Shown: positions 3,278 to 44,733 of the stretch, piece by piece
How positions within the stretch are numbered: position 1 is the first letter of the stretch
Layout: every line of letters begins with the position of its first letter
DNA from: Mustelus asterias
Taxonomy: Eukaryota
NCBI RefSeq assembly: GCF_964213995.1
Contig: NC_135802.1
Coordinates: 39,618,001-39,682,000, forward strand
DNA length: 64,000 nt
Direction of reading: 5' to 3'
Translations under genes and position numbers: made by a program
The notes under the pieces: generated by a model
The model's input: the letters and a program-made list of their open reading frames with translations, nothing else
What the model was told of the DNA's origin: nothing
Database searches by the model: none

Positions 3278-3675
3278 ATGATGTGGAGATGCCGGCGTTG
3301 GACTGGGGTAAACACAGTAAGAAGTTTAACAACACCAGGTTAAAGTCCAACAGGTTTATTTGGTAGCAAAAGCCACACAAGCTTTCGAAGCTCTAAGCCC
3401 CTTCTTCAGGTGTGGGAATTCTGTTCACAAACAGAGTTTATAAAGACACAGACTCAATTTACATGAATAATGGTTGGAATGCGAATACTTTTACTGGTAA
3501 GTATTCGCATTCCAACCATTATTCATGTAAATTGAGTCTGTGTCTTTATAAACTCTGTTTGTGAACAGAATTCCCACTCACCTGAAGAAGGGGCTTAGAG
3601 CTTCGAAAGCTTGTGTGGCTTTTGCTACCAAATAAACCTGTTGGACTTTAACCTGGTGTTGTTAAACTTCTTACT
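3278..3675. mobile_element. Penelope-like fold-back (palindromic pLTR) insertion #1, 12-bp TSD TTGGTCACAGAA
   Basis: 38-nt tail 3278-3315, arms 3316-3490 and 3499-3675, TSD at 3266-3277 and 3676-3687. The sequence matches the 3' end of the PLE at 30407. Confidence 0.93.
3575..3618 (+). ncRNA. Minimal type I hammerhead ribozyme (A-type); mirror copy at ~3373-3414 (-)
   Basis: CAC-CUGAAGA-A-GGGGC/UUAGA/GCUUC-GAAAGCUU-GUG: conserved core, stem II, stem I CAC/GUG, palindromic AGCU in place of stem III. Confidence 0.75.
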
Positions 3676-5020
3676 TTGGTCACAGAAGACAGAGGGTGGT
3701 AGTGGAAGGGTCTTTTTCCGGCTGGAGGCCTGTGACTAGTGGTGTTCCGCAGGGCTCTGTATTGGGACCTCTGCTGTTTGTGATTTATATAAATGATCTG
3801 GAAGAAGGTGGAACTGGGGTGATCAGTAAGTTTGCGGACGACACAAAATTGGCAGGACTTGCAGATAGTGAGGAGCATTGTCAGAAGCTACAGAAGGATA
3901 TAGATAGGCTGGAAATTTGGGCAAAGAAATGGCAGATGGAGTTCAATCCTGATAAATGCGAAGTGATGCATTTTGGTAGAAATAATGTAGGGAGGAGCTA
4001 TATGATAAATGGCAGAACCATAAAGGGTGTAGATACGCAGAGGGACCTGGGTGTGCAAGTCCACAGATCCTTGAAAGTGACGTCACAGATGGAGAAGGTG
4101 GTGAAGAAGGCATATGGCATGCTTGCCTTTATAGGACGGGGCATAGAGTATAAAAGTTGGGGTCTGATGTTGCAGATGTATAGAACGTTGGTTCGGCCGC
4201 ATCTGGAATACTGTGTCCAGTTCTGGTCGCCACACGACCAGAAGGACGTGGAGGCTTTGGAGAGAGTACAGAGGAGGTTTATCAGGATGTTGCCTGGTAT
4301 GGAGGGGCTTAGTTATGAGGAGAGATTGGGTAAACTGGGGTTGTTCTCCCTGGAAAGACGGAGGATGAGGGGAGACTTAATAGAGGTGTATAAAATTATG
4401 AAAGGCATAGATAGGGTGAACGGTGGGAAGCTTTTCCCCAGGTCGGTGGTGACGTTCACGAGGGGTCATAGGTTCAAGGTGAAGGGGGGGATGTTTAACA
4501 CCGATATCAGACGGACATATTTTACACAGAGGGTGGTGGGGGCCTGGAATGCGCTGCCAGGCAAGGTGGTGGAGGCGGACACACTGGGAACGTTTAAGAC
4601 TTATCTAGACAGCCATATGAACGGAGTGGGAATGGAGGGATACAAAAGAATGGTCTATTTGGACCAGGGAGCGGCGCGGGCTTGGAGGGCCGAAGGGCCT
4701 GTTCCTGTGCTGTATTGTTCTTTGTTCTTTTGGAGAAGATACTGAGGGACAGGATATTTGCACATTTGTAAAAAAAACTGGACTAGTTAGTGACAGACAG
4801 CATGCTTTTGTGCAGGGAAGGTCATGTCTCGCCAACTTGATAGAGTTTTTTGAAGAGGTGACAAAGCTAATTGATGAGGGAAGGACTGTGGATGTGGTTT
4901 ATATGAATTTGAGTAAGGCATTTGACAAGGTCCCACATGGCAGACTGGTACAAAAACTAAAATCACATGGGATTCAGGGTGGGCTGACTAGATGGATACA
5001 GAACTGGCTTGGTTATAGAA

Positions 5021-6310
5021 GTGGAGATGCCGGCATTGGACTGGGGTGAACACAGTAAGAGTTTTAACAACACCAGGTTAAAGTCCAACAGGTTTATTTG
5101 ATAGCAAATACCATTAGCTTTCGGAGTGCTGCTTCTTCGTCAAATGGAGTGGAAATGTGCTCTCAAACAGGGCACTGAGACACAAAATCAAGTTACAGCA
5201 TACTGATTAGAATGCAAATCCCTACAACCAACCAGATCTTAAAGATACAGACAATGTGGGTGGAGGGAGCATTAAGCACAGGTTAAAGAGATGTGTATTG
5301 TCTCCAGACAGGACAGCCCGCAAGTCCAGGAGTCAAGCTGTGGGGGTTACTGATAATGTGACATAAATCCAACATCCCGGTTTAGGCCGTCCTCATGTGT
5401 GCGGAACTTGGCTATCAGTTTCTTCTCAGCGACTCTGCGCTATCGTGTGTCGTGAAGGCCGCCTTGGAGAACGCTTACCTGAAGATCAGAGGCTGAATGC
5501 CCGTGACTGCTGAAGTGCTCCCCCACAGGAAGAGAACAGTCTTGCCTGGTGATTGTCGAGCGGTGTTCATTCATCCGTTGTCGTAGCGTCTGCATGGTTT
5601 CCCCAATGTACCATGCCTCGAGACATCCTTTCCTGCAGCGTATCAGGTAGACAACGTTGGCCGAGTTGCAAGAGTAGGTACCAGTACCTACTCTTGCAAC
5701 TCGGCCAACGTTGTCTACCTGATACGCTGCAGGAAAGGATGTCCCGAGGCATGGTACATTGGGGAAACCATGCAGACGCTACGACAACGGATGAATGAAC
5801 ACCGCTCGACAATCACCAGGCAAGACTGTTCTCTTCCTGTGGGGGAGCACTTCAGCCGTCACGGGCATTCAGCCTCTGATCTTCAGGTAAGCGTTCTCCA
5901 AGGCGGCCTTCATGACACACGACAGCGCAGAGTCGCTGAGCAGAAACTGATAGCCAAGTTCCGCACACATGAGGACGGCCTAAACCGGGATGTTGGATTT
6001 ATGTCACATTATCAGTAACCCCCACAGCTTGCCTCCTGGACTTGCAGGCTGTCTTGTCTGGAGACAATACACATCTCTTTAACCTGTGCTTAATGCTCCC
6101 TCCACCCACATTGTCTGTATCTTTAAGATCTGGTTGGCTGTAGGGATTCGCATTCTAATCAGTATTCTGTAACTTGATTTTGTGTCTCTGTGCCCTGTTT
6201 GAGAGCACATTTCCACTCCATCTGACGAAGGAGCAGCGCACCAAAAACTAATGGTATTTGCTACCAAATAAACCTGTTGGACTTTAACCTGGTGTTGTTA
6301 AAACTCTTAC
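5021..6310. mobile_element. Penelope-like fold-back insertion #2 (~630-bp arms containing GIY-YIG coding sequence and pLTR), TSD TTGGTTATAGAA
   Basis: Centre ggtac-ca-gtacc at 5677-5688. Mirror ORFs 5553+ and 5567-. ORF 5770..6018 is the GIY-YIG C-terminus. TSD at 5009-5020 and 6311-6322. Confidence 0.94.
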
Positions 6311-8665
6311 TTGGTTATAGAAGACAGAGAGTAGCAGTGGAAGATTGTTTTTCAGAATGGAGATCTGTAGCTAGTGGTGTTCCACAGGGATCAGTGCTGG
6401 GACCTCTGTTATTTGCAGTATATATAAATGATCTGGAGGAAAAGTGGATGGTCTGATTAGTAAGCTTGCCGATGACATGAAGATTGGTGGAGTTGCTGAG
6501 TTGGGGATTGTCAGAGGATACAGCAGGATGTAGATAGATTGGAGACTTGGGCACAGAAATGGCAGATGGAGTTCAGTCCGGACAAATGCGAGGATTTTGG
6601 AGGATCAAATTTGGGTGTGAATGATACTGTAAATGGCAGAACCCTTAGGAACATCAACATACAGAGTGATCTGGGCATGCAGGTCCACAGTTCCCTAAAA
6701 GTGGCAACACAGATGGCCAAGATGATTAAGAAAGCATATGGCATGCTTGCGTTCATCAGCAGAGGCATTGAGTACAAGAGTTTGGAAATCATGTTGCAGC
6801 TATATAAAACCTTGGTTAGGCTGCATCTGGAGTATCGCGTGCAGTTCTGGTCACCAGACTAACAGGAAGTGAAAGCTTTGGAGAAAGTGCAAAGAAGGTT
6901 CACCAGGATGTTGCCTGGTCTCGAGGGTGTTGACAATGAGAAGAGGTTGAATAAACTAGGATTGTTTCACTGGAAAGACGGAAGCTGAGAGGAGACCTGA
7001 ATGAGGTCTACAAAATGATGAGAGGCGTAGACAGGGTGGATAGTCAGAGGGATTTTCCTAGGATGGAACTGTCAATTATAAGGGGGCACAGGTTCAAGAT
7101 GAGAGAAGGAAAATTTGAAGGAGATGTGCAGTGGAAGTTTTTCACACAGAGAGTGGTCGGTGCCTGGAACGTGCTGCCAGAGAAGGTGGTGGAAGCAGGC
7201 ACATTAGCAGCATTTAAGAGGCACCTGGATGTGTACATTAATAGGGAGGGAATAGAGGGATACGGACTGAGTAAGGGCAGAAGGTTTTTTAGTTTAGTTA
7301 GGGCATCATGATCGGCACAGGCTTGGAGGGCCTGTTCCTGTGCTGTACTGTTCTTTGTTCGTTGTTCTATTCTAGAACTAGGGCATAGTCTAAAAATTAG
7401 GGCCAGACCATTCAGGCGAGATGTTGTAAAGTATTTCTACACACATAGGATGGTACAGGTTTGGAACTCACTTCCACAAATGGCAGTTGATGTTAGATTG
7501 GGCTAACTTTAAATCTGAGATAGATAGATTTTTGTTTAGCAAAAGTATTAAGGGATATGGCCAAAGGCAGTTATATGGAGTTAGGCCACAGATCAGCCAT
7601 GATCTCATTGAATCGCGGAACAGGCTTGAAGGGCTGAATGGCCTACTTCTGTTCCTGTTTCCTATCAAAAGCACTTCACTGAATGAATCACCTTTTGAAA
7701 TGTAGTGATTGGAGGCAGCAGTCATTTTGCACTAGCAAATTCCTGAGATTTCGTGATAATGGCTGGAAAAGAAATGTTGGCCAGGAAGCCAGGAGAACTT
7801 TCTGCTCTTGTGCTATTAGACATTCAGCATCCATCCAAATCTACAGCCGACACTCAATTTAACATTCCATCTAAAGAATGACACATTGATAAGTTTGTGC
7901 AAACAATGCAACCTTCCAACAAAAACCTAAATACACAATGAATGCTACTCACACCCAACGTTGTATGCAAGCTCTCTTGGGTGTTAATGTCTGTACCTTT
8001 CCAATGGCCAACATCTATCTATTGGAACGGTCTTCCATAAATGACAGTTGATGCTAGATTAATTGCTATCTTTAAATCTTAGTTAGATAAGTTCTTGTTA
8101 AGCAAAGGGATTTGGGCCAAAGGCAGGTACATGGAGTTAGGCCACAGGTCAGCCATGATCTCCTTAAATGGCGAAACAGGCTTGATGGGCTGAATGACCT
8201 TTTCCGTTCCTACCTTCCAAAGGCTGCAATGCATGAAAAGCTCACAAACAAGGGGGTCAAAGTGATAACATGTTTACTGGAAGGGAATACACAGACTCCA
8301 GATGCAGTGGGCATGGGTGCCTCACAATTGATGGGCTCTGGGAGTGTGGTTGAATTGGGAAACAGTCATCTTCTTGAAGCTACTTGCCTTTTCCCCCTGG
8401 GTTGCTAATATTCTGCATGGTCTGGTGAAGACTGAGCTGGAGAGATTGATGTAAGTGTGCTGAACTGGTATTCAAATATGGCGCCGAGACCTTCAAACTC
8501 ATCAGCTGGCAGAGGGCATTCGAATCAGTTGGCAGCCCGCCAGAAGATTCGGAGGAGAACTTGTATGTGCATAATTAATAATCGAACTAGCGAAGGCCTA
8601 TCAGAACATTTTTTTAAGTGCGACTACTGTTAACTTATAACTATAATGCACTTTCACTGACAATT

Positions 8666-8994
8666 GGGGCGGCACGGTAGCACAGTGGTTAGCATTGCTG
8701 CTTCACAGCTCTAGGGACCTGAGTTCGATTCCCGGCTTGGGTCACTGTCTGTGTGGAGTTTGCACATTCTCCTCGTGTCTGCGTGGGTTTCCTCCGGGTG
8801 CTCCAGTTTCCTCCCACAGTCCAAAGATGTGCGGGTTAGGTTGATTGGCCAGGTTAAAAATTGCCCCTTAGTGTCCTGAGATGCGTAGGTTAGAGGGATT
8901 AACGGGTAAATATCTGGGGGTAGGGCCTGGGTGGGATTGTGGTCAGTGCAGACTCGATGGACCGAATGGCCTCTGTAGGGTTTCTATGATTCTA
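8666..8994 (+). mobile_element. tRNA-derived V-SINE (HE1-like)
   Basis: Head with A/B boxes (ggcacggtagcacagtggttagc...gttcgattcc), V-domain ctgtgtggagtttgcacattctc, CR1-like tail ttctatgattct. Confidence 0.88.
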
Positions 8995-9893: not shown

Positions 9894-10836
9894 TTGTGTC
9901 ACCTGATGTTACCAGCTTTGTTTTGCTGGTGAAAACGGCTTGATGCCCGAAATGACATGATTAACAGGGGAGGGGGAGTGGGGGGGGGCGGTGATCGGCA
10001 AGGAGGTAGGATTTGGGGGAGAGACCAGCACGAGATGAGGCAGGAGATTTCCCAGTTCACTGGTAGATCAGGGCATCTGTGCAAGACGCCCCAAGAGCTC
10101 TGCAGCTGGCTTCACTGGGAGTTTAGCATCCTCGTCCATGCCTCCACCCCCGCTTACTGGGGAGAATCGTTGGGGCTTTTCTTTTGCACTGAGTGCCGTA
10201 GGATTGCTACTCGTGGCTTGCTGAAAAGAATGGCGTCTTTCTCTCCTGTTTTCTCCTTGTTCGGCACTTAGAACTTTTTTTGTAAGCTAGCGCCATAAGT
10301 GTCACAACAGCGTGAAAACGGGAGTCCTGCATGCCCCCTTTTGGGTGGGCTTGACACTGCAATCTTTCAGGAATCTGTCGATTTCTTTGACAGCTGGGAG
10401 CTTTGCGCCGGCCGGGGGGTGCGTGAATCCTAAGTCCACCAGTGAAGCTGGCTTCAGAGCACTCAGGCGCCATTGCGCTGCTGCCCTGATCTGTTACTGG
10501 ACCGAGTGACCACCTCTCACCCTCCCACAATCCCATCGTCAGCTCCCCTGCCCGCCCCGCCCCACACACACTTACATGGGTCGCCAGCGTCAGGGCATCA
10601 GGACTTCCAGATGAGTCTGCTGGCGGAGCCTGACATGCCCCCACCCCCGCTGTCGTGACCTCCTCCATGACCCACCCTACATAGCCAGCCCCCCCACAAC
10701 CCCTCCTTTTTGCACAACCTCTCCCTTACATGTCCACCTCCCTTGCAGAACTCCTCCCTCACCAGCACCCCCCCCCCCCCCCCCCCCCACCCTTGCATGA
10801 CCACTCCCCGGAGGACACTGCCTGTCCATTAGGCTT

Positions 10837-10941
10837 GATGTGGAGATGCCGGCGTTGGACTGGGGTAAACACAGTAAGAGTTTTAACAACACCAGGTTAA
10901 AGTCCAACAGGTTTATTTGGTAGCAAATGCCATTAGCTTTC
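10837..10941 (-). mobile_element. Short PLE 3'-end fragment (tail + part of pLTR, ending inside the hammerhead)
   Basis: gatgtggagatgccggcgttggactgggg...gcaaatgccattagctttc matches the left arms of the other PLE insertions. Confidence 0.88.
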
Positions 10942-13034
10942 TGCCGATAAGCAATCCAATTTGCACTGGGTGCAAATCAAATTTTAGGCCCCTCTCCCTA
11001 TCTTTCCTGCTTACCACACTGATTGACTGGTGTGTCAAGCCGGTGAGATCGTGCCCATTGTCTCCAAACGAATGAACACAGCCTTTCAGAAAATAAAGTA
11101 GCTAAATAAAAGCTCCAGATTAACAGTGTGCGTTGGGAGATTATACAGAAATGAGCAAAATGGAGGGCAAGCTATAGAAATTGTTCACCCTGTATTTTTC
11201 CTCTCTTCCTATATAGTTTGAATTCATCTTTCTGTCCAATCCTCACTGAAACGCTCACACAGAAATTGTTTTGTCTGCTCTATTGCTTTTTAATTATACC
11301 CCTATTAAATTTAATTGTATTTGGGTACCTTTTGGTATGAGCTGCATTAATAACGTTTTTGCTTGGATTTGTTGAATTTCCTAGTTTAGGTAGTACATTG
11401 AACAAGGAAAAAAAGATTTGCTGCTTTTGTTTTTATGCACTGGTTACTGTACAAATTGAAACACTTGGTGCTACTTGATTGGCAACAATTGGCAGCGGTC
11501 AAATAGGAAGCATGCAAACCATTCCCTCGTGTCACTAATTAACCATGGTGGTTGTGCATCCATCTTTAATAGTTCATAAATATTATGTTAGCAAGACTTT
11601 TTAAAAATATCTGCTGAAGTAAAGAAAATAAAAACTAGAAACAGTAATTTTATTTTGAATGGAGAGGATTAATGGCAATTATTAAGATTTATGGGGTAAT
11701 TTTAGGCATTGCCAAAATGCATGAGAAATTCAGTCACCCCCATTCTAACATTTTCCATTCACTAATATTGTGGGAATTGCTCCATGCCAGAGAGTGAATT
11801 TGTAAAGTCACACCTTTAATTCCTTTAGGAAAAGTTAGAACGAGTGATATTTATTCTCTGGTAGATTTTTGGTACTGATTGAGAAAGCAATAAAAAGAAA
11901 CCAGTCAAGGTTGACCAACATTGCAACTTTTCCACGGAGCAATAAAGATTCACAATAATTCATCAAAAATTAAAGACTTCTAGCCAACCTTTACATTGGG
12001 CTACATCCCAAAAATCACTCTGGTTTATGGTATTAACTTTACACTCCCTATATTCTGTGCAAGCGATTCAATTCTTTTCCATTATCATTGTACCTCTTGT
12101 TACTATCTCGTTTTACTGTTAATCACAAGAGAAAAGGTTAGTCTGCAGTATTTCACACAGGAGCCAGTTCTATTCAAAACATGGAGTGCTTGCCAGGAAC
12201 ATTTATGAAATATTTAATGAAATGTGATGCTGTCTCTTTGACTTTAAAAAATGTAACTTTAAAAGGCTCAGGATGTGCAGTGGAAGCATGAAAAAATCAT
12301 TGTTTAATGATTTTTGTGTCACTTGTGTGCCATGTATAAAACTGTTTGTAGTCGAAAGAAATATACTTCTGTGGTATTCTTCAGGTGGAAGAAACAATAC
12401 GTAGTTAATTACTTTTCTCAAATCAGCAAGGATTTCCCTTCTATGTATGATATTATTCCTTTTATTCCACATAATTGTCAGCTTTTTGAAGCCATCCTGA
12501 CATTTATGAGCTATAAAGGAAAAACTTTTCAATCTACTGCATAAAATACCAATCCAGTGCCTCATATTTTGGCTTTAAAAATGACTATGCTGAGGAAAAA
12601 GACAGTTTGCCATATTTCTGAATAGCAGCAGTGGTGACATTAAAATTAGATCACACAACATTGCTAGATTTTCTGTTAGTAGTCAGAATAATACTGGATT
12701 ATATAAGGCAATATGTCAGTTGTAATTTATTTTAATTTAGGAACTCTTTGCACTCAACAACATGCAGAAACTTTCAAGTGCATTAATTATGTTTCTGTAG
12801 ACGGGAATGATTGCCAAATGCTCCAGCAAAATAGAAACATTTTACAAACTTGTTGCTTTGGTTACACTAAAATCATGCGGTTGTTTAGAATCAACAAAAG
12901 TTTAAATTTTTTAGGCTTTTAAAGAAGCTCATGGCATCAATAGTATTTGATTCTGATATTTTAAACTGATTTTGAACAACCATCCTAACATTGGCAATGC
13001 TGAAGATATTTATTTTGTGTTTTGTCATCCACAG

Positions 13035-21092: not shown

Positions 21093-22608
21093 ACATTGGG
21101 ATTCTCGTTAGCGGTGAACAAGGTTGATGAATTCCCCCCCACCCCCCCCCCCCCCCCCCCCACCCCGGTTATAAATGAGAATTGGTTCTCAATTGACTTA
21201 CCCCTATTAAAAAACCTGTTTATTTGTACTGTTAAACCAATTTTATCTGTATTAATAAAACTACACCAGGTTGCCATCCTTAAATACTTACTTGCTGGAA
21301 GGATATATTCGGTTTGATTATGCTGCTGGATTGCTCTGGTTCATAACAGATTTTACATTTGTGATTCTGCCAATAAATAGAAAATTGAAGCCTCACAAAA
21401 TGTGCAATTTCCTGACTCTGCCTGAATTAGAAATTTTTGCCCCCATACATTTAGTCATTTAATGTATACTAAACCCCAAAATTGTAAATATTTGATGTGG
21501 AAAATATTAACAAAATTCAAAAACAGTAAAATGTGTGGAGAATCGGAGAATTTGTTTTATTGCAAAACAACTGCAGTCCACAAATTCCCAAATCCAACAG
21601 TATAACGGTTTGAGTACTGCAACTATGAGCAGATTTTATGGTTGTAATGATGGCAAAACTGTCACCGTTGGTCATCATTACAACTTCTGGCATCCATGCA
21701 AGCATAGTTAAACAAGGAAATCCAGAAGTTGCTGTCAGCGATTTTCCCACTCCTCCACAGGTTGTGCTGTGAAGACCCCACCAATGGACACTTGACTTTT
21801 AAAAATCCTTGAAAATGTTATGTTTTGTTGAATGAGGTGCAACTGGGTCTTTAACTGCATTCCATGTTCATAATTGCTGCTGAACAACCTCTTTGGCCCT
21901 GAAAACATATTTTACATCTACAGAATGTCAAATTTTCCATTATGAATAACAAATTCTATGAATTTTTCAAATATTATATTTCAGCTTCTACCTTCCCAAT
22001 TTTTATTTGTCTGTAAAATTATTAAAATCTGAATATTAATTGTTTTCTGTGTGAATTCTTCAATGTGATCAGCTGCTTAACCTGCTTCATGATATCACTG
22101 CTGCTGGACAGTGGAAATCTCCTTCGAGTTGATGCTGCTAATGTTAGAGAAAGGTGAAAGCCGGCCTACAGAATGCACTAGTTATTCGTGGACAGTTATC
22201 TTCAATGTTTATGGTGAGCGTCATGGCTGTCCCATTGACCAAAAAGTGCAGGCCTGCATGTTTAATTAACAAGTATGATAATTGGGCTCATGTTGACTGC
22301 CATTCTTCTTCCCTCTAAAGATTTTGACTGTTCTCTCTGTGGGTGGCAAAGAATGTGTATTGTTGAAAATATCCCGAGCAATGTTTTAGACATGACTTTT
22401 CTCACACAATCCAGGGATTGCATCACATCAGAGACTTATTAGGCTCTGAGCTGACTTTTTAATGATCACATTATTACTGGCATGACCACGAGTAATTTAG
22501 CAAATCATTTTGTGCAGCATTGGCTTTAGAATACACAAAATGCATGTGATAGGTCAACTGGAGCTTCAATTCTTCATTTTCAGATGATTGCTGCACAACC
22601 AATGTTTA

Positions 22609-22649
22609 CCCCACCCCAGTCCAACACCAGCACCTCCATCCACATCGTG
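22609..22649 (+). mobile_element. Solo PLE tail insertion with 14-bp flanking direct repeat ACAACCAATGTTTA
   Basis: ccccagtccaacaccagcacctcc..cacatcgtg matches the PLE tail ccccagtccaacgccggcatctccacatcatg. Repeats are at 22595-22608 and 22650-22663. Confidence 0.72.
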
Positions 22650-25007: not shown

Positions 25008-25300
25008 GTAGGCAGGGTGGCACAGTGGTTAACACTGCTGCCTCACAGCACCAAGGACCCAGGTTCGATTCCCGTGTCTGTGCGGAGTCTGCATGTTTTC
25101 CCCGTGTCTACATGGGTTTCCCCCAGGTGCTCTGGATTCCTCCCACAGTCCGAAAGATGTGCGGTTCGTGCATTGGCCATGCCAAATTCTCCCTCAGTAT
25201 ACCCAAACAGGCGCGGGAGTGTGGCGACTAGGGGATTCTCACAGTAACTTAATTGCAGTATTAATGTAAACCTTCTTGTGACACTAATAAATGAACTTTA
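25008..25300 (+). mobile_element. tRNA-derived V-SINE variant with a non-CR1 tail
   Basis: Same head and V-domain as the other SINEs, but the 3' part is gtggcgactaggggatt...cactaataaa. Confidence 0.75.
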
Positions 25301-28436: not shown

Positions 28437-30505
28437 AATTCCACCAACCGTGTGGGGAACCGTCGGTCAGCTGAGAATTTTCACAAATGACCCAAATCAT
28501 GGCCAGAGGCAGGGCTTGCTATCCTACTAAGGACATGTTGTGCTTTTAAAGCTGGTGGGCCTATGGGAGGCTCTCCAGCACCAAAAAAGTGACAGGCTGC
28601 CTTTCATAGTAGCTGAGGTGGAAGGCATCCCAAGATGGAGGTGCTCCTCTTCAACTGTGTGAAATTTAAATTAGAAAATAATCTCAGTGGCTGGGATTGG
28701 GGGAGGGGATCCTGTGGCCTGCAGCTATAGTTGAAGCTGGAAAGGCATGTGCTCCCCCACCCTTCCCACTGTCAGTCACCAGCTACCCTCTTCCCCATTG
28801 CATCCAGGGTTCTGGAAGCTGACTGGATTCCAGCAATAGGTTTTAATTAAGCTTTTAAACAGTTGAATTGGTTCCAACAACACTCAAGAAGCTCAACACC
28901 TTCCAGAGCGAAGCAGTCCACTTGATCGGCACCCCATCCACCAACCTAGACATTCACTCCTTCCATCACTGATGCATAGTGGCAGCTGTACTATAAACAA
29001 CATGCTCTGCAACAACTCACCAAGACTCATTCGATAACATCTTTCAAACTCACGACCTTTACCACCTAAGAGGACAAGGACAGCAAGCTACACAGCATCT
29101 TGAATTGGAACCATATCACCATTCCTTCACTGTAATTGGACCAAAATTCTGGAATTCCCTTCCACATGGACCACAGTGGTTCACAAAGCAGTTCACCACC
29201 ACCTTCTCGAAGTATGGGCAATTAATGATGTCCTCGCCTGTGACACACCAATCCCATAAAATATTTTTTAAAAAACATCCATCTGTAGGCAGGTAGTCCT
29301 GCCAGACCCCAATCCTATTTCCAGGAAAATAACTTGGGGTGGCATGGAGACAGAGAACAGGCATGCCATCTGACGCCGCAAATTTTGACACCTTCCCACC
29401 TCATGCCCCTGTTCCCATAAGACCTAAAAATTAAGATCTTTGGGTTGTGCAGCTGGAGACAAATTGCTGTTCTACCACTGATATTCTAAACTGAAAGGTA
29501 AGCACAGAGCGTAGTTTATCTGTACCTCTTAAAGATCAGATATCTGAGTACTTCGTTCATACTTGTGAGTGTAAACCACCCTAATCCAGCAGAACCCAGA
29601 CATCTCTTGTCAAATATAATCTGGCTACAGGAGTTGGCATACATAAGGGTGGAAAGTTTTAGAGTATCATAGCACAAAAATAGTTGAGTCCTGTAGTCCC
29701 TCAAAATGAATGTAATGAAAATAACAGGTTTGAGAAAACAGAAATAAGAATAGCTGGTCAAAGAATGAGGGGAAGTGAGGATTATTAGAGACTGCGTCAC
29801 CCTCAGCTACCATCGTAATATTGGTCCAGATTTTGCAGTCAGCGGTGAAGTGACAGAACTTGTCTCTCACCTTGAAGAAAGCTGTCTATATGATCTAGCT
29901 ATCTCTCTGGTGTGAATTTCCTTTTTCCTATATAGATTTGAATTTGGCGGCAAGTCGAGGGAATCTCCAGGATCCAGCAACAGTGATGCCATCAAGCAGG
30001 ATGAGCAGCGAATCACATTGAAGAATTCTCTCGGGCAAACCAGGAAGTAAAAAGCCATGATTAGGCCATACACATTAGAAGCTGAAATATCAAACTTTTT
30101 TGAACAAATGAAATTTGAAATTCTTAGCAGCATGTAAAAATTTGGAATTACAAAAACATAAAGCTATGTTTCCAGAGTTGTCCTTCAGTAGTAGTTAAGA
30201 CTGAAAGTTCTCATCAGTGTGGTGATTTCTATTGTAGTCTGCAAGGGTACAGCTTGTTCTACAGAGAAGTGCAGAATTACTGACAAAAACTTCTGAATTT
30301 AACAGTGCATGTGTGGATTCTGCAAATTGTGGTCAGTTTCAGAGGGGAAGCAATGGCAAACACTGACAATTACAACTTTCTCCCAGCATTCTGGGTGGCA
30401 TGGTAGTCATGATGTGGAGATGCCGGCGTTGGACTGGGGTAAACACAGTAAGAAGTTTAACAACACCAGGTTAAAGTCCAACAGGTTTATTTGGTAGCAA
30501 AAGCC

Positions 30506-30544
30506 ACACAAGCTTTCGAGGCTCTGAGCCCCTTCTTCAGGTGA
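30506..30544 (-). ncRNA. Minimal hammerhead ribozyme (A-type) in the PLE pLTR
   Basis: The - strand reads UCAC-CUGAAGA-A-GGGGC/UCAGA/GCCUC-GAAAGCUU-GUG. Confidence 0.75.
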
Positions 30545-30825
30545 GTGGGAATTCTGTTCACAAACAGAACTTATAAGACACAGACTCAATTTACATGAAT
30601 AATGGTTGGAATGCGAATACTTACAACTAATCCAGTCTTTAAGAAACAAAACAATGGGAGTGGAGAGAGCATCAAGACAGGCTAAAAAGATGTGTATTGT
30701 CTCCAGACAAGACAGCCAGTGAAACTCTGCAGGTCCACGCAACTGTGGGAGTTACAAATAGTGTGACATAAATTCTGATTCTAGGATCGCATGATAAAGA
30801 CTCAGGAGGAAAAAAGCAGAAATAT

Positions 30826-32759
30826 TTATGTGAAATAGTGTGACATAAACCCAATATCCCGGTTGAGGCCGTCCTTGTGTGTGCGGAACCTGGCTATCAG
30901 TTTCTGCTCCGCGACTCTGCGCTGTCGTGTGTCGCGAAGGCCGCCTTGGAGAACGCTTACCCGAATATCAGAGGCCGAATGCCCGTGACCGCTGAAGTGC
31001 TCCCCAACAGGAAGAGAACAGTCTTGCCTGGTGATTGTCGAGCGGTGTTCATTCATCCGTTGTCGCAGCGTCTGCATGGTCTCCCCAATGTACCATGCCT
31101 CGGGACATCCTTTCTTGCAGCGTATCAGGTAGACAACGTTGGCCGAGTTGCAAGAGTATGTACCGTGTACCTGGTGGATGGTGTTCTCACGTGAGATGAT
31201 GGCATCTGTGTCGATGATCCGGCACGTCTTGCAGAGGTTGCTGTGGCAGGGTTGTGTGGTGTCTTGGTCACTGTTCTCCTGAAGGCTGGGTAGTTTGCTG
31301 CGGACAATGGTCTGTTTGAGGTTGTGCGGTTGTTTGAAGGCAAGAAGTGGGGGTGTGGGGATGGCCTTGGCGAGATGTTCGTCTTCATCAATGACATGTT
31401 GAAGGCTCTGGAGGAGATGCCGTAGCTTCTCCGCTCCGGGGAAGTACTGGACAACGAAGGGTACTCTGTCCACTGTGTCCCGTGTTTGTCTTCTGAGGAG
31501 GTCGGTGCGGTTTTTCGCTGTGGCGCGTTGGAACTGTTGATCAATGAGTCTAGCGCCATATCCTGTTCTTATGAGGGCATCTTTCAGCGTCTGGAGGTGT
31601 CTGTTGCGATCCTCCTCATCCGAGCAGATCCTGTGTATACGGAGGGCTTGTCCGTAGGGGATGGCTTCTTTAACGTGTTTAGGGTGGAAGCTGGAGAAGT
31701 GGAGCATCGTGAGGTTATCCGTGGGCTTGCGGTACAGTGAGGTGCTGAGGTGACCGTCCTTAATGGAGATGCGCGTGTCCAAGAATGCAACCGATTCCGG
31801 AGAGTAGTCTATGGTGAGCCTGATGGTGGGATGGAACTTGTTGATGTCATCATAGAGTTGTTTCAGTGATTGTTCACCATGAGTCCAAAGGAAGAAAATG
31901 TCATCGATGTATCTAGTGTATAGCACCGGTTGAAGGTCTCGTGCGGTGAAGAAGTCTTGTTCGAACCTGTGCATGAAGATGTTGGCATATTGAGGTGCAA
32001 ATTTGGTCCCCATGGCTGTTCCGTGTGTCTGGATGAAGAACTGGTTGTTGAAGGTGAAGATATTGTGGTCCAGGATGAAGCGGATGAGATGTAAAATTGC
32101 ATCTGGAAACTGGCAGTTGTTGGCGCTGAGCACTGAGGCCGTTGCAGCAATGCCATCGTCATGGGGGATGCTGGTGTAGAGTGCTGAGACATCCATTGTG
32201 ACGAGGAGCGCTCCTGGTTCAACTGCTCCATGTGTGCCGAGTTTCTGTAGGAAGTCCGTCGTGTCGCGACAAAAGCTGGGGGTTCTTTGTACAATGGGTT
32301 TCAGGATGCCCTCGACATAGCCGGAGAGGTTCTCGCACAGGGTCCCATTGCCCGATACGATGGGACGGCCGGGTGTGTTTGCCTTGTGTATCTTCGGGAG
32401 GCAGTAGAGATCTCCAACGCGGGGAGTACGTGGGATGAGAGCACGGAGGGTGTTCTGAAGGTCCGGATCAAAGGTCTTGATCAGAGTGTTGAGTTGACGG
32501 GTGTGTTCTTTGGTCGGATCTGCAGGTAACTGTCTGTAGTGTTCCTCGTTGTTGAGTTGTCGGTACACTTCTTTGCAGTAATCCGTTCTGTTCAGTATGA
32601 CGATGGCCCCTCCTTTGTCTGCTGGTTTGATGACAATGTTGCGGTTGGTCTTGAGAGCGTGGATGGCATTACGTTGTGCTTGGGTGATGTTCGGGGCTGT
32701 CTTGTGAGTGCGGCTGATGAATTTGGTGTTGACGCACCTCCTGACGGCTTGGGCATACA
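30826..32759 (-). CDS. PLE polyprotein, N-terminally truncated: reverse transcriptase + Cys-rich linker + GIY-YIG endonuclease
   Basis: IKPADKGG, LPKIHK, GRPIVS, DVSALYTSI, GTAMG and RYIDD RT motifs; linker PCHSNLCKTC; VVYLIRC..C...YIGET and R..EH. No internal stops. The listed N-terminus MPTTVPTTV is read from SINE sequence. Confidence 0.93.
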
Positions 32760-34248
32760 CAGTGGTTGGCACAGTGGTTGGCACTGCTGCCTCACAGCAC
32801 CGGATTCAATTCCGGCCTTGGGTCACTGTCTGTAGGGAGTTTGTACATTCACCCTGTGTCTGCATGGGTTTCCTCTGGGTGCTCCGGTTTCCTCCTATAG
32901 TCCAAAGATGTGCGAGTAAGTTGATTGGCCATGCTAAATTTACCCTAGTGTCAGGGGATTAGCAAGGTAAATATGTGGGGTTACAAGAATATGGCCTGGG
33001 TCGGATTATGGTTGGCGCACACACAATGGGCCGAATGGCCTCCTCCTGCACTGTAGGGATTCTATGATTCTTCTATGATTGCTATTAAAAACCTGGGCCA
33101 TTGTCAAACAGGTTTATTCAAATCATTTACATTGCATTGAATGTTGCAGTTGAAAACCTATATCTACAAGGTGGAAGGAATGTGAAGAGACACAAAAACC
33201 ATGACATAACATCTGGCAGTGGCTCAGTATTGAAACTTTCTGGAATACTGTTTTGACTGAGCAGGGTGACAAGATAAGCACTACCATTGTCGCAGACTAA
33301 GCCAGATGCATCCCAGGCCTTACTTCTGGAATGTTACTCAACCACTTATGAAGGAAGCTGATAAATTTATGTGTGAAGTCTGACACTATATTCTCTTTCC
33401 TTAACGCCAGATGTTTTTGGTAGGAATTAGGGCATGCCTCCAAAATGTGGGAGGCAGTTACTTCAAAATAGGTTCTGAGTGCAGTTGACAGGTGCTAAAC
33501 CTTCAACAACTTGGGATTATTTTCTTGAGCAAAATTTAACCTGAGGATGCTTTGGCGCATCATTGTCAAAAATCAGTGTCTCGCTTCTTGAATAGCTTCC
33601 TTAAACATTTGTCTGTGATAGCAAATAACCAGCACTGAAACCATCTGTTGTAAACTCTCTGCTACATGCTATTCTTTTATTTACAGCTGGATGCTACTGA
33701 TGGTAAAGTACAATCTTTTGGCTATTCTACATTCTAGGAATTAAAATATTTAATAAACAATGATTCAGGTGAAAATCCTTTACATTTTTGCAAGAACCAC
33801 AGTGATTTGGGGTGTGGAGAGAGGGAGTGTTGGGGTGGAAAAAAGAGAGAGGGGATAACTTGTGAGCTAGTACCAGAATAAAATGGCTGGATTGTTGGAA
33901 AAACCTAACTGGCTCTCTCATATTTCAGAAAAGAGAAGTTTACACCCTTATCTGGTCTGACTCTAGTTACATAATATGTAGTCCATCTAATTAGTACCCT
34001 CTGGAGTTACCCTCATTACCTTCTCTGCAGAACAAGGGAAGTGCAATACATGCAGTCTTGTCAACATCACCCACAAATAAACAATAACATTCTGTGAAGC
34101 ACTATGAATCACTAAGAGGGGACCAAGTCACAGCAGTTGTATAACGTGTTTATTGATAGCACGTTAGAGGTAAATTTAACTTTTCAATATGATTTTGAAC
34201 TTGATACGCTAAGAAAAAAAATAACGTTACACTACTTAAATGTTTCAG

Positions 34249-34392
34249 ACAATAAAACATCTGAGGACATTGGAATTTAAACCATATGTGATATTCATCA
34301 AGCCACCATCACTTGAACGCCTCAGAGAAACCAGAAAGAATGCAAAAATCATTTCAAGCAAAGATGACAAAGGTTCTGCCAAACCATTCACG
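34249..34392 (+). CDS. MPP7: MPP7-like exon ([48 protein letters not shown])
   Basis: tttcag acceptor, gtatgt donor, 144 nt, phase 0/0. Contained in ORF 34240..34452. Confidence 0.92.
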
Positions 34393-35179
34393 GTATGTTT
34401 TGCAGTTTATATAGACTGTAAAACTTTTTGTACTCAAAACTGTTTTGGATGAGTATAACATTTTAATTACTATTTATCTGTTTTGGGTAAATATGGGATA
34501 ATGGAAATTATGCTGCTGTGGATATGTAGATCTCCCACTAAACAATGAATCCGTACTCTCAACGTAAAGAGTCTACATCAGTGAATGATTTTACATTTTT
34601 GAAGTTATCTTTATGATGTGTGTGGTTGGACTAGTAGCAGACTTATGGCCAGTCTACAGAGGAATGGTTCCCATTAGATTCTTAACAACCATCGTTCAGT
34701 GGGATGTCTGCTTGAGTTGTGCTAGAACATAATTTCCAGAAGTAAAAGCCATTTGTGTATCAATTTTCTAATGCTTCAGGGTTTCTTGGACAATAGAAAA
34801 ATGTAAAATTCTCACTGGTGGAATATGAAACTACTTGAAACAAACAGACAGAATTGCATTCTGACTTATTTTAGATTAGCAAGGCAATAGATCTAGGATC
34901 TAATCTTTCTGGGGCTAAATATCTGGGGCAAATTCACAATGCACAGCATTATTAATGTGCAAATCAACCAGCACGTTTAGGGGAAGAAGACCTATGACAT
35001 CATCTTCTTGAGAACAATTAGAAATGGGCAAGAAATGTTGGCCTTTCCACTGATGCCTATATCTTAGGAACAAATAAAATCCGTAAATTGCTGATCAATT
35101 TACAGTGCTCCATTGTTTGTTTTGCATTATAGCAGCTCACCCTCAACTTTTCGAGAGATTGAGTTGATTCGAATTATAT

Positions 35180-40500: not shown

Positions 40501-41173
40501 ACGAATCCAATAACATGCTTCTATTTTTTATCCATTTACGGAAAATGAGCATCGCTGGCTAGGCCAGCATTTATTGCACCCCTAGGTGCCCTTCAAAGGT
40601 TGGTGATGAGCTGCCTTCTTGAACAACTGCAGTCCATGAGGTGTAGGTACACCCACAATGCTGTTAGGGAGGGAATTCCAGGATTTTGATCCAGCGACAG
40701 GGATATATTTCCAAGTCAGGATAGTGAATGACTTGGAGGGGAACTTTCAGATGCTGGTGATCACAGGTCTCTGCTGCTCTTGTCCTTCCAGATGGTGATG
40801 GTCATGGAGAGGAAGGGTGTGAGGGGAGAGAAAGAATGGGGGATAAGAAAGTGTGAGGAGGAACGAGGAGTGTGTGGGCAGGAAGAAGGGGACAGAGTAT
40901 TTGAGAGGGGAGAGGCAGAGTGTTTTGGGGGCGGTGGAGAGAGACGGTGGAGGTGGAAATTTTCCCATCCCGCCTGTCACAGAAATCGTAGCATTGTGTT
41001 TTGCAGGGGAAAGAGGGATACAATGTTTTTGGGGGGGGAGAGGGAGATGTTTCTTGGGGGGGGGGGGGGGCACAGGAAGACAGTGTCGGAGGGGGAAGAG
41101 GGTTGAGATTGTTGGCAAATATGCTGAATGGACTGCAGAGCCAATTTATACCATATGTTAGTTGCATCTTTCA

Positions 41174-44100
41174 GGGGGGTGCACCTGAACCAGAGGGGCA
41201 CCAATATCCTAGGAGGGAAATTTGTTACGGCTCTTCAGGGGGCTTTAAACTAATTTGTCAGGGGAGTGGGAAAAGGAGTTGTAGTCCAGAAGTCGGTGAG
41301 GGTGGTGAGGTATTGGGGAAGGTATCAAGGTCAAGGGTGGGTACCGGTAGACAGGAAGGTGGGTTGAAGTGTGTCTACTTCAATGCAAGGAGCATCCGGA
41401 ACAAGGTAGATGAACTTGGGGCGTGGATTGGTACTTGGGACTACGATGTTGTGGCCATTACGGAGACGTGGGTAGAACAAGGACAGGAATGGTTGTTGGA
41501 CGTTCCGGGGTATAGATGTTTCACTCAGTGTGGGGAAGCTGGTAAAAGAGGTGGAGGAGTGGCATTGTTAATCAAGGATAGTTTAACGGCTGCGGAAAGG
41601 CACTTCGAGGGGGATCTGCACACTGAGGTAATATGGGCTGAGGTTAGAAATAGGAAAGGAGCGGTCACGTTGTTAGGAGTTTACTATAGGCCCCCAAATA
41701 GTAATAGAGATGTGGAGGAAGAAATTGCTAAGCAGATTATGGATATGTGTGGGGGTCACAGGGTAGTTGTCATGGGGAACTTTAACTTTCCAAATATTGA
41801 TTGGAACTTTTGTAGGTCAAATAGTTCGAATGGGGCAGTTTTTGTGCAGTGTGTGCAGGAGGGTTTCCTGACACAATATGTGGATAGGCCGACAAGAGGT
41901 GAGGCCACATTGGATTTGATACTGGGAAATGAACCGGGCCAAGTGTTAGATTTGGTTGTGGGAGAGCACTTTGGAGATAGTGACCACAATTCGGTGTCTT
42001 TTGTTATTGCAATGGAGAGGGATAGGGCCGTACGGCAGGGCAAGGTTTACAATTGGGAGAGAGGTAATTATGATGCGATTAGGCAAGAATTAGGGGGCAT
42101 AAGTTGGGAACAGAAACTGTCAAAGAAAGGAACTAATGAAAAGTGGAACTTTTTCAAGGAACAAATACTGGATGTCCTTGATAGGTATGTCCCTGTAAGG
42201 CAGGGAGGAAATGGCCGAGTGAGGGAACCATGGTTCATGAAAGAGGTGGAATGTCTTGTGAAAAGGAAGAGGGAAGCTTATGTAGGGATGAGGAAACAAG
42301 GTTCAGATGGCTCGATTGGGGGTTACAAGTTAGCAAGGAATGAGCTGAAAAAGGGGCTTAGGAGAGCTAGGAGGGGACATGAGAAGTCCTTGGCGGGTCG
42401 GATCAAGGAAAACCCCAAGGCTACTCTTATGTGAGGAATAAAAGAATGACCAGGGTGAGGTTAGGGCCGGTCAAGGACAGTAGTGGGAACTTGTGTATGG
42501 AGTCAGTAGAGATAGGCGAGGTGATGAATGAATACTTTTCTTCAGTGTTCACCAAGGAGAGGGGCCATGTTTTTGAGGAAGAGAAGGTGTTACAGGCTAA
42601 TAGGCTGGAGGAAATAGATGTTCGGAGGGAGGATGTCCTGGCAGTTTTGAATAAACTGAAGGTCGATAAGTCCCCTGGGCCTGATGAAATGTATCCTAGG
42701 ATTCTTTGGGAGGCAAGGGATGAGATTGCAGAGCCTTTGGCTTTGATCTTTGGGTCTTCGCTGTCCACGGGGATGGTGCCAGAGGACTGGAGAATGGCGA
42801 ATGTTGTTCCTCTGTTTAAGAAAGGGAATAGAAATGACCCTGGTAATTATAGACCGGTTAGTTTTACTTCGGTGGTTGGTAAATTGATGGAAAAGGTCCT
42901 TAGAGATGGGATTTGCGACCATTTAGAAAGATGCGGATTAATCCGGGATAGTCAGCACGGATTCGTGAAGGGCAAGTCGTGCCTCACAAATTTGATAGAA
43001 TTTTTTGAGGAGGTAACTAAGTGTGTTGATGAAGGTAGGGCAGTTGATATCATATACATGGACTTTAGTAAGGTGTTTGATAAGGTCCCCCATGGTCGGC
43101 TTATGATGAAAGTGAGGAGGTGTGGGATAGAGGGAAAGTTGGCCGATTGGATAGGTAACTGGCTGTCTGATCGAAGACAGAGGGTGGTGGTGGATGGAAA
43201 ATTTTCGGATTGGAGGCAGGTTGCTAGCGGAGTGCCGCAGGGATCAGTGCTTGGTCCTCTGCTCTTTGTGATTTTTATTAATGACTTAGAGGAGGGGGCT
43301 GAAGGGTGGATCAGTAAATTTGCTGATGACACCAAGATTGGTGGAGTAGTGGATGAGGTGGAGGGCTGTTGTAGGCTGCAAAGAGACATTGATAGGATGC
43401 AAAGCTGGGCTGAAAAATGGCAAATGGAGTTTAAACCTGATAAATGTGAGGTGATTCATTTTGGTAGGACTAATTTAAATGTGGATTACAGGGTCAAAGG
43501 TAGGGTTCTGACGACTGTGGAGGAACAGAGAGATCTTGGGGTTCATATCCACAGATCTCTAAAGCTTGCCAGTCAAGTGGATAGAGCTATGAAGAAGGCC
43601 TATAGTGTGTTACCTTTTAGGGGGTTGGAGTTTAAGAGCCGTGGGATTATGCTGCAACTGTACAGGACCTTGGTGAGACCACATTTGGAATATTGTGTGC
43701 AGTTCTGGTCACCTCACTATAAGAAGGATGTGGAAGCGCTGGAAAGAGTGCAGAGGAGATTTACCAGGAAGCTGCCTGATTTGGAGGGTAGGTCTTATGA
43801 GGAAAGGTTGAGGGAGCTAGGGCTGTTCTCTCTGGAGCGGAGGAGGCTGAGGGGAGACTTAATAGAGGTTTATAAAATGATGAAGGGGATAGAGTGAACG
43901 TTCAAAGACTATTTCCTCGGGTGGATGGAGCTATTACAAGGGGGCATAACTATAGGGTTCGTGGTGGGAGATACAGGAAGGATATCAGAGGTAGGTTCTT
44001 TACGCAGAGAGTGGTTGGGGTGTGGAATGGACTGCCTGCAGTGATAGTGGAGTCAAACACTTTAGGAACATTTAAGCGGTTATTGGATAGGCACATGGAG

Positions 44101-44201
44101 CACACCAGGATGATAGGGAGTGGGATAGCTTGATCTTGGTTTCAGATAAAGCTCGGCACAACATCATGGGCCGAAGGGCCTGTTCTGTGCTGTACTGTTC
44201 T
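41174..44201 (+). mobile_element. Young CR1: end of ORF1 (esterase-like HLN..GTNIL) plus almost intact ORF2; 8-bp TSD ATCTTTCA
   Basis: ORFs 41001..42434 (APE), 42431..43897 (RT) and 43894..44133, with two frameshifts. TSD at 41166-41173 and 44202-44209. Confidence 0.94.
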
Positions 44202-44209
44202 ATCTTTCA

Positions 44210-44483
44210 TTTCATGTATGTGTAGTTAATAATTGAAGCAATTTTCCTGTTAACGTGTGTTTATAATGTTGATTATAGATGTAGAATATAGGTGGCTAGC
44301 CAAGATAGTGTTTGCTTTGTTTGACTCTTGTATATTAAAATTTATTTTGTTTTAAACTGTCGAATTTTTGTGGCTTCATTCTTTCAGTAAATAACTGGGA
44401 TTTCGAATTTCTTTCTTTTGAAAAGAAGGTACTGGTCTCAACTGAGATCATAACATTGGGGGAGCTCTGTAGGATTTTGAATC
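44210..44483 (+). mobile_element. Probable LTR 3' end (…gatcataaca) followed by a degenerate tRNA-Pro-like primer-binding site
   Basis: The segment ends in CA at ~44455, then tgggggagctctgtaggattttgaatc resembles TGGGGGCTCGTCCGGGATTTGAACCC. The same gatcataaca end is at ~51140 and, inverted, at 53542. Confidence 0.4.
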
Positions 44484-44733
44484 ATGATGTGGAAATGCCG
44501 GCGTTGGACTGGGGTAAACACAGTAAGGAGTCTAACAACACCAGGTTCAGGTCCAACAGGTTTATTTGGTAGCAAACGCCACTAGCTTTCGGAGCGCTGC
44601 TCCTTCGTCAGATGGAGTGGAAATCTGCAGATTTCCACTCCATCTGACGAAGGAGCAGCGCTCCGAAAGCTTGTGGTGTTTGCTACCAAATAAACCTGTT
44701 GGACTTGAACCTGGTGTTGTTAGACGCCTTACT
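44484..44733. mobile_element. Penelope-like fold-back insertion #3 (250 bp, no spacer), 12-bp TSD GGATTTTGAATC
   Basis: 38-nt tail 44484-44521, centre aaatctg|cagattt, end CTTACT. TSD at 44472-44483 and 44734-44745. Confidence 0.93.
44640..44676 (+). ncRNA. Minimal hammerhead ribozyme (B-type); mirror copy at 44579-44615 (-)
   Basis: CCAU-CUGACGA-A-GGAGC/AGC/GCUCC-GAAAGCUU-GUGG. Confidence 0.75.

What the first reader, a model, noticed from the sequence alone, without database searches (positions are those of the whole stretch)
3278..44733. Stereotyped fold-back architecture: one-sided tail, fixed CTTACT end, constant 12-bp TSD
Seen in sequence: three complete palindromic insertions (3278-3675, 5021-6310, 44484-44733) have very different arm lengths (~175, ~630, ~106 bp) and spacers of 8, 2 and 0 nt. 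All have a 33-38-nt tail on the left arm only, a right arm ending at CTTACT and a 12-bp target duplication. Established: Drosophila Penelope forms inverted pLTR structures with a short tail. Inference: the constant stagger and fixed second end imply a defined two-nick integration, in which cDNA folds back or a second priming starts at a fixed internal site ~38 nt from the RNA 3' end.
Basis: partly seen in the sequence, partly recalled or inferred. Interest (0 to 1): 0.7.

Follow-up and report, generated by a model that had tools for sequence, protein, structure and literature searches.

The report
Shark Penelope retroelement with symmetric target
The three mirror-image insertions are copies of a Penelope-like jumping gene in the layout already published for that class, but they land at the centre of a short symmetric DNA site that makes one spot in another repeat (CR1) a hotspot, a preference I did not find described.

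Summary
The three palindromes are real head-to-head insertions of a Neptune-type Penelope-like element (PLE) in a shark genome. 'Fixed' and 'constant' are overstated. Tails run 33 to 39 or more nt, the tail-less end spreads over about 4 nt, one duplication reads 11-14 bp, and only 3 of 7 PLE-derived inserts in the window are complete palindromes.

All three sites are CTG-NN | 12 nt | NN-CAG (post-hoc chance about 8e-5), which fixes all three duplications at 12 bp. Three of 7 inserts hit the same nucleotide of different CR1 LINE copies. In independent reads, 113 join that CR1 position to a PLE end, against about 1-5 expected. The element's own tail boundary carries the same half-site. Best model: two opposed nicks at NNCAG half-sites 12 nt apart, with the mirror arm made during insertion. 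Whether the tail-less end comes from nicking a fold-back hairpin or from a second RT start is open. No genome was held, so there is no census.

The parts
3266..3277 (.). E1 left target-site duplication (12 bp; right copy 3676-3687). CTG at 3261-3263 and CAG at 3690-3692 frame it, 2 nt away on each side
3278..3315 (-). E1 tail, 38 nt (element 3' extension)
3316..3675 (.). E1 head-to-head arms 3316-3490 (-) and 3499-3675 (+), subfamily A, one minimal hammerhead per arm; inserted in CR1 ORF2 at the W-L-x-x-R-R-Q codons
5009..5020 (.). E2 left duplication (12 bp in the symmetric frame; apparent repeat 14 bp; right copy 6311-6322). CTG 5004-5006, CAG 6325-6327
5021..5053 (-). E2 tail, 33 nt
5054..6310 (.). 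E2 arms 5054-5681 (-) and 5684-6310 (+), subfamily B, including the GIY-YIG-coding end of the ORF; same CR1 nucleotide as E1; centre at an inferred native 6-bp inverted repeat
10836..10941 (-). E5, solo tailed 5'-truncated arm; CTG at 10818-10820 (in register if the first tail base is mutated, else 1 nt off); no duplication found
22609..22649 (+). Decayed tail-only insert between 14-bp direct repeats (22595-22608, 22650-22663; part of the repeat is microhomology); its inner end lies at the tail boundary
30409..32760 (-). L, long 5'-truncated tailed copy; open frame 30826-32805 with RT, CX4CxxC linker and GIY-YIG with CCHH; CTG at 30391-30393 (1 nt off the E1 register)
44472..44483 (.). E3 left duplication (12 bp; right copy 44734-44745), not in CR1. 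CTG 44467-44469, CAG 44748-44750: the independent test of the motif
44484..44733 (.). E3: tail 44484-44521, arms 44522-44627 (-) and 44628-44733 (+), subfamily C, zero spacer
63608..64000 (.). E4: tail-less subfamily C arm 63608-63717 (-), starting exactly at the element's own CACAG half-site and at the same CR1 nucleotide as E1/E2 (CTG 63591-63593), then a subfamily A-like sense arm running off the window

Best explanation
These are insertions of a Neptune-type Penelope-like retrotransposon whose endonuclease prefers the half-site 5'-(nick)NNCAG-3'. Where two half-sites face each other as CTG-N16-CAG, both strands are nicked 12 nt apart with 3' overhangs, giving the 12-bp duplication. The conserved W...Q codons of CR1 ORF2 often supply such a site, so that CR1 position is a hotspot. 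One nick primes reverse transcription at the RNA's distal start (tailed arm). The mirror arm is made in the same event from the same template or its cDNA, and it lacks the tail because it begins at the tail boundary, which is itself a CACAG half-site on the cDNA strand. SHOWN: anatomy, family, target symmetry in 3 of 3 complete inserts, CR1 recurrence. INFERRED: nick positions and polarity (standard TPRT logic), endonuclease as the source of the preference, paired action. How the tail-less end forms is open. I slightly prefer hairpin resolution (about 40%): the cDNA snaps back and copies itself through tail and overhang; the enzyme nicks the hairpin at its own CACAG; the freed 5' end joins the second target end; and the new 3'-OH copies the unfolded hairpin. 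A second RT start is about 35%. The stated confidence is for the symmetric two-nick target, not for this last step.
For: Family: RVT_1 and GIY-YIG hits; linker and CCHH motifs in the frame as defined in PMC8557442; 94% identity over 449 aa to a Mustelus asterias protein. Target: CTG-NN|12|NN-CAG in E1, E2, E3, and the left half in E4. Chance that two independent sites share a symmetric 3-mer at the same offset is about 8e-5; chance of 3 of 7 inserts at one homologous CR1 nucleotide is about 1e-7. E1, E2 and E4 are different PLE subfamilies and lengths in different CR1 copies, and E4 is in the other orientation. 3 of 4 CR1 sites with the left CTG are hit and 0 of 3 without it. Reads: 113 (X19) and 58 (X20) reads join CR1 position 5020 to a tail-less PLE end, against about 1 expected in X19. 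The loose-end consensus of 27,779 and 22,311 reads at the tail end has CTG at -16..-14 in both raw-read runs. 784 X19 reads in the listed rows change strand within the arm. Own half-site: CACAG follows the tail boundary in 5 of 5 tailed copies printed; E4 starts exactly there; the tail-only insert ends there; both solo arms are tailed. E2's centre matches an inferred native 6-bp stem with its 3-nt loop minus one base, and such stems occur twice in 2,352 nt.
Against: n is small and E1, E2 and E4 are one site class, so E3 is the only independent full test. 25 unoccupied CTG-N16-CAG sites lie in the window, one of them in a CR1 copy at about 43.2 kb, so the motif is not sufficient; the hit/unhit split alone is not significant (p 0.11). 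The read consensus is one register off the window sites, is absent from the X15 contig consensus, and may partly be the element's own ORF start. Read joints may hide up to 40 letters, so they place the hotspot within about 40 nt, not at one base, and the runs' species is unknown. The tail-only piece fits one half-site only. The E1 and E3 centres are not explained by a clear native hairpin. E4's arms belong to two subfamilies, which simple fold-back cannot make unless it is a nested insertion. E1-E3 tail-less ends are 2-4 nt short of the CACAG nick, so nibbling must be assumed.
Confidence: 0.68

Rival explanations
1. Same symmetric nicks, but both nicks prime reverse transcription: one at the distal start (tailed arm), one at an internal start about 38 nt upstream (tail-less arm), on the same or a second RNA. 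The two cDNAs are then joined head to head. This is the anole Poseidon mechanism transferred to a Neptune element; it shares the target part of the best explanation.
For: Shown in vitro for PAc: both strands are nicked and extended, there are two adjacent RT starts, and the tail equals the sequence between them (PMC11167929). E3's zero spacer with a shared GC fits end-to-end joining. E4 has arms from two subfamilies (97% to E3 versus 88-90% to L/E1).
Against: It needs an extra assumption to explain why both arms stop at the same base in 3 of 3 complete inserts. Both solo arms are tailed. RNA folding gave no significant structure at the internal start (z -0.48, 0.49, -0.66). E4 may be a nested insertion cut by the window end.
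Confidence: 0.35
2. There is no real target specificity. This is an ordinary PLE with loose preference and variable duplications; the 12-bp repeats and the CTG/CAG frame are small-sample coincidence, and CR1 is hit because it is abundant.
For: Published view: moderate target preference and variable duplication length (PMC8557442 Introduction); rotifer duplications of 8, 9 and 10 bp. CR1 covers about 12.6% of the window. The motif was found post hoc.
Against: Abundance explains 'in CR1' but not the same nucleotide three times (about 1e-7). E3 lies outside CR1 and has both half-sites (about 8e-5 after allowing for the search). Read joints exceed expectation by 20-100 fold.
Confidence: 0.15
3. 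The CR1 recurrence comes from amplification of a few CR1 copies that already carried a PLE (chimera spread or segmental duplication), not from repeated targeting.
For: The read joints cannot be assigned to loci, so part of the 113 could come from an amplified chimera.
Against: In the window the three CR1-site inserts differ in PLE subfamily, arm length and orientation. The duplications of E1 and E2 each carry their own host copy's bases on both sides. This rival does not explain E3.
Confidence: 0.1
4. The palindromes are assembly or library fold-back artefacts.
For: E1's arms have no substitution. Fold-back chimeras are a known library artefact (own knowledge). No long read spanning these three loci was seen.
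Against: Target duplications on both sides, a one-sided tail, 19 and 4 arm substitutions in E2 and E3, resumption of the CR1 frame on both sides, strand-changing joints in independent runs, and the same layout published for other animals.
Confidence: 0.03

Closest known systems
Neptune-clade PLEs and the general EN+ PLE insertion layout (PMC8557442; PMC3846280)
   Same: RT plus C-terminal GIY-YIG with CCHH, CX2-5CxxC linker, 5' truncation, inverted head-to-head copies, optional one-sided 30-40-bp tail, short duplication, palindromic inverted junctions. [quoted passage not shown]
   Different: In the passages read, duplications are described as variable (8, 9, 10 bp in rotifer) and the Neptune bias as microsatellite. 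Here the duplication is 12 bp, centred in a symmetric CTG-N16-CAG site, with a hotspot in CR1 ORF2.
PAc, Poseidon of Anolis carolinensis (PMC11167929)
   Same: Both target strands are nicked; two starts bracket a 30-40-nt tail; hammerhead in the terminal repeat; predicted dimer; cleaves its own repeat junction.
   Different: PAc is Penelope/Poseidon clade (no linker zinc finger) and prefers AT-rich 5'-ATT-3'. That paper reports no fixed stagger or palindromic two-half-site target in the main text read.
[quoted passage not shown]
   Same: GIY-YIG domain with a short, tolerant cleavage motif; both strands nicked.
   Different: I-TevI nicks within one CNNNG motif, 2 nt apart, positioned by a separate DNA-binding site. 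Here the inferred nicks are 12 nt apart at two mirror-image half-sites.
Minimal hammerheads of metazoan PLEs (PMC4209133)
   Same: CUGAnGA core, helix II, GAAA, palindromic AGCU in place of helix III, short helix I.
   Different: Nothing essential. Rfam gave no hammerhead hit; activity not tested.

Membership tests
EN+ Penelope-like elements | RT and C-terminal GIY-YIG endonuclease in one ORF | tested here: met
   Frame 30826-32805 hits RVT_1 (E 3e-10). The homologous C-terminal piece in E2 hits GIY-YIG (E 3e-4, 21.4 bits, just under the 22.6 cut-off). Homologues carry PF01541.
EN+ Penelope-like elements | CCHH motif with two cysteines between GIY and YIG | tested here: met
   YLIRCKKGC...WYIG with downstream His residues in the frame; definition from PMC8557442.
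EN+ Penelope-like elements | Terminal repeats in inverted or tandem arrangement with optional 30-40-bp tail | tested here: met
   Inverted arms and 33-38-nt tails. A direct 5' pLTR was not seen; no full-length copy lies in the window.
EN+ Penelope-like elements | Minimal hammerhead in the terminal repeat | tested here: met
   8 matches to a min-HHR pattern in the window, all in PLE arms. Rfam: 0 hits at gathering in the window, no hammerhead by E-value in 44400-44800.
Neptune clade | CX2-5CxxC zinc-finger-like linker before the endonuclease (absent in Penelope/Poseidon) | tested here: met
   CHSNLCKTC (CX4CxxC) in the frame. The source says Nematis also has a (reduced) linker motif.
Neptune clade | RT phylogeny groups with reference Neptune elements | not tested
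   No labelled reference set (Repbase) was available; assignment rests on the linker and on vertebrate homologues.
Neptune clade | Insertion bias to microsatellites (reported tendency, not strictly defining) | tested here: not met
   None of the flanks printed for E1-E5 and L is a microsatellite.
PAc-type two-start TPRT | Two RT initiation sites separated by the tail | not testable with these tools
   Needs biochemistry. Genomic ends are compatible.
MITE / DNA transposon | Terminal inverted repeats around a non-palindromic core, ends equal on both sides, no RT origin | tested here: not met
   Arms are 3' fragments of an RT-GIY-YIG element and the ends are unequal.

The most novel reading that the evidence does not exclude
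Shark Neptune elements use a sequence-selective, symmetrically acting GIY-YIG nuclease (NNCAG half-sites, fixed 12-nt 3' stagger). It repeatedly disrupts the RT gene of the host's CR1 LINEs at one codon, and it also nicks the element's own fold-back hairpin at the tail boundary. The long-unexplained one-sided tail and inverted arm of PLEs would then be the footprint of a hairpin-resolution step.
Probability: 0.3. Interest if true: 0.72.

Novelty: new variant of a known kind. Interest (0 to 1): 0.44.

Why it matters
How PLEs make inverted copies and the one-sided tail is named as open in the papers read, and their endonuclease is described as loosely selective with variable duplications. A very abundant vertebrate family with a short symmetric target, a fixed stagger and a matching half-site at its own tail boundary gives an exact substrate for an in vitro test and a census that can separate hairpin resolution from twin priming. 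It would also be a case of one retrotransposon recurrently knocking out another at a conserved RT codon.

Tried and rejected
No whole genome is held, so no census. Pattern scans for more copies: metagenome contigs gave 2 matches, both chance and with no similarity to the window; viral contigs 0; genome contigs 0. Protein-guided scans: viral 0 confirmed of 6 candidates; genome contigs 1 of 73, a 37% relative on a 1.5-kb contig almost filled by the match, not used. Rfam found no hammerhead; the two microRNA hits are artefacts of the palindrome. RNA folding of the terminal repeat was not better than shuffles, so no structural claim is made for the internal start. No duplication was found for L (searched 32700-34500) or E5 (10930-11100). 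A MITE reading and an artefact reading were rejected. No structure or complex was predicted. Literature searches for a PLE target consensus or CR1 hotspot listed nothing that describes one. Subscription papers (Pyatkov 2004, Arkhipova 2006) and Repbase entries were not seen and could hold it.
Full report
VERDICT. The three palindromes are genuine insertions of a Neptune-type Penelope-like element (PLE). Their layout is published. The part I did not find in print is their target: a symmetric site that fixes the duplication at 12 bp and makes one CR1 position a hotspot. That part rests on few loci and one read-laying run.

1. OBSERVATION. The three inserts exist as stated. E1 has a 38-nt tail (3278-3315) and arms of 175/177 nt; E2 a 33-nt tail and arms of 627 nt; E3 a 38-nt tail and arms of 106 nt. 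The 3' ends face outward (head to head). Direct repeats are 12 bp for E1 and E3. For E2 the repeat is 14 bp because of microhomology, so 11-14 bp can be read. Arms differ by a 2-nt indel, 19 substitutions (13 transitions) and 4 substitutions, which argues against a library fold-back. The tail-less end is CTTACT, CTTAC(T) and CTTACT(G), and CTTACTGTG in a fourth copy. Self-comparison found four more PLE-derived inserts: solo tailed arms at 10836-10941 (E5) and 30409-~32760 (L), an asymmetric copy at 63608-64000+ (E4), and a tail-only piece at 22609-22649. So 3 of 7 inserts show the full pattern.

2. WHAT IT IS. L holds a 659-codon open frame with RT, a CX4CxxC linker and a GIY-YIG domain with the CCHH motif. 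Its closest named homologues are shark proteins, 94% identical over 449 residues to one from Mustelus asterias. The linker marks Neptune/Nematis against Penelope/Poseidon (PMC8557442, passages); no tree was built. A minimal-hammerhead pattern matches 8 times in the window, always in a PLE arm (motif described in PMC4209133, part 1 of 4); Rfam has no hit. At least three subfamilies are present (A: E1, L, E4 right; B: E2, E5; C: E3, E4 left).

3. WHAT IS ALREADY KNOWN. [quoted passage not shown] Inverted repeats with an optional 31-bp tail, duplications of 8, 9 and 10 bp, head-to-head palindromic junctions and self-priming are in PMC3846280 (passages). Nicking and extension of both strands, two adjacent internal RT starts bracketing the tail, an ATT preference and a predicted dimer are in PMC11167929 (main text and start of Methods; supplement 1 gave only figure lettering; supplements 2-3 not read and may bear on end positions). 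The same review states that duplication length is variable and target preference moderate (Introduction), with a microsatellite bias proposed for Neptune.

4. E1, E2 and E4 interrupt different CR1 copies after the same base of the ORF2 motif W-L-x-x-R-(R/S)-Q. They differ in PLE subfamily and arm length, and E4 presents its tail-less end where E1 and E2 present the tail, so these are separate events. With 7 homologous CR1 sites and 7 inserts in the window, chance is about 1e-7. In E1, E2 and E3 the flanks read CTG-NN, 12 nt, NN-CAG; E4 has the left half in exact register, and E5 and L have it within one base. E3 is outside CR1 and is the only independent full test. The chance that two sites share a symmetric 3-mer at one offset, allowing ten offsets, is about 8e-5. 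Among the 7 CR1 sites, 3 of 4 with the left CTG are occupied and 0 of 3 with TTG (p 0.11, not significant alone). Against sufficiency: 25 empty CTG-N16-CAG sites remain in the window.

5. INDEPENDENT READS. Four coded public runs (2 raw-read, 2 contig sets, of 21 listed) were laid on 4850-5680; their species is not known to me. In X19, 193,801 of 13.07 million reads were laid, so the family is very abundant. The joint table showed 15 of 660 rows. Three rows join CR1 position 5020 to the tail-less end region: 28, 42 and 43 reads in X19 (113), and 4, 18 and 36 in X20 (58). No CR1 position upstream of 5019 appears among the rows shown. Random insertion predicts 0.026 reads per base, or about 1 if 40 hidden letters are allowed, and about 5 if every laid read were counted as an end. 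These rows may hide up to 40 letters, so they support a hotspot within about 40 nt, and they cannot exclude a contribution from amplified chimeras. Seven listed rows (784 X19 reads) change strand inside the arm, consistent with short head-to-head inserts being common; some could be library chimeras. The loose-end consensus before the tail (27,779 and 22,311 reads; 24 of 3,455 rows shown) has CTG at -16..-14 from the ATGAT in both raw-read runs, one base off the window register; a shared A at the junction would account for that. The contig run X15 does not show it, and the five bases next to the tail look like the element's own continuation, so many tails run beyond 38 nt.

6. MECHANISM. By standard target-primed reverse transcription logic (established knowledge), outward-facing 3' ends with a duplication need nicks on opposite strands with 12-nt 3' overhangs. 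Each nick then lies 5' of NNCAG (inference). On the cDNA strand the element's own tail boundary is followed by CACAG in 5 of 5 tailed copies. E4 starts exactly there. The tail-only insert ends there. One contig joint in X15 shows a tandem tail restarting one base from there (table 5c, 12 of 163 rows shown). Both solo arms keep the tail. This suggests hairpin resolution: the first nick primes the tailed cDNA; it snaps back and is copied through tail and overhang; the enzyme nicks the hairpin at CACAG; the freed 5' end joins the second target end; and the new 3'-OH copies the unfolded hairpin. That gives equal arms, a tiny spacer, one tail and a 12-bp duplication. E2's centre fits snap-back at a native 6-bp stem, inferred by combining L and E2 sequence. 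E1's centre fits only a 3-bp stem with a changed loop, and E3's fits none. E1-E3 ends are 2-4 nt short of the predicted nick. The rival, two RT starts as shown for PAc, has biochemical support in another clade and suits E3's zero spacer and E4's two subfamilies, but must explain equal arm lengths; E4 may simply be nested. I put about 68% on the symmetric two-nick target, and about 40% versus 35% on hairpin resolution versus two starts for the tail-less end.

7. NOVELTY. Eight literature searches and passage searches in 10.64898/2026.07.22.740005, PMC7334843, PMC3681739, PMC12910113 and PMC12774661 showed no symmetric PLE target consensus or CR1 hotspot. The library lacks most subscription papers; Pyatkov 2004 and Arkhipova 2006 were seen only as cited, and Repbase was not available. 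Earlier notes of this scan are unchecked leads: one shark report agrees that the mirror arm is built at insertion, one reports a 15-bp duplication for a PLE complex in another genome, and one reports the head-to-head layout in a nuclease-less PLE, which would weaken a nuclease-dependent resolution step as a general rule.

8. SCORES. Finding as written: known architecture. With the target preference: new variant of a known kind, interest 0.44. If hairpin resolution at a self half-site is confirmed, about 0.72 (probability about 0.3).

Noticed in passing
window 54731-56137: An old, about 1.4-kb inverted-repeat element (arm segments 74-91% complementary, about 300-nt centre) unrelated to the PLE; probably a decayed DNA transposon or large MITE.
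   Followed up: no
window 30756-30849: A 60-bp insertion with a 17-bp direct repeat at the very end of the ORF of copy L; it separates the last codons from the normal stop.
   Followed up: partly
window 44612-44643 and 63700-63740: E3 and E4 (both subfamily C) turn back at almost the same base, about 12 nt upstream of the hammerhead: a preferred stop or fold site, or a short non-autonomous subfamily.
   Followed up: partly
window 63715-64000: E4's right part is a different subfamily from its left arm and starts near the ORF end with a short microhomology; possibly a PLE inserted into the centre of an older PLE palindrome, cut by the window end.
   Followed up: partly
window 32760-33070, 47567-47882, 8680-8993, 57502-57754, 25015-25194: A family of about 300-bp repeats (74-79% alike), SINE-like; one abuts the truncated 5' end of copy L.
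   Followed up: no
window 40992-43897: A nearly complete CR1-type ORF2 (APE endonuclease plus RT, in two frames) that carries an unoccupied CTG-N16-CAG site at about 43157-43178.
   Followed up: partly
window 33103-33118: A 15-of-16 match to the PLE terminal repeat upstream of copy L, in the same orientation; chance or a decayed remnant.
   Followed up: no
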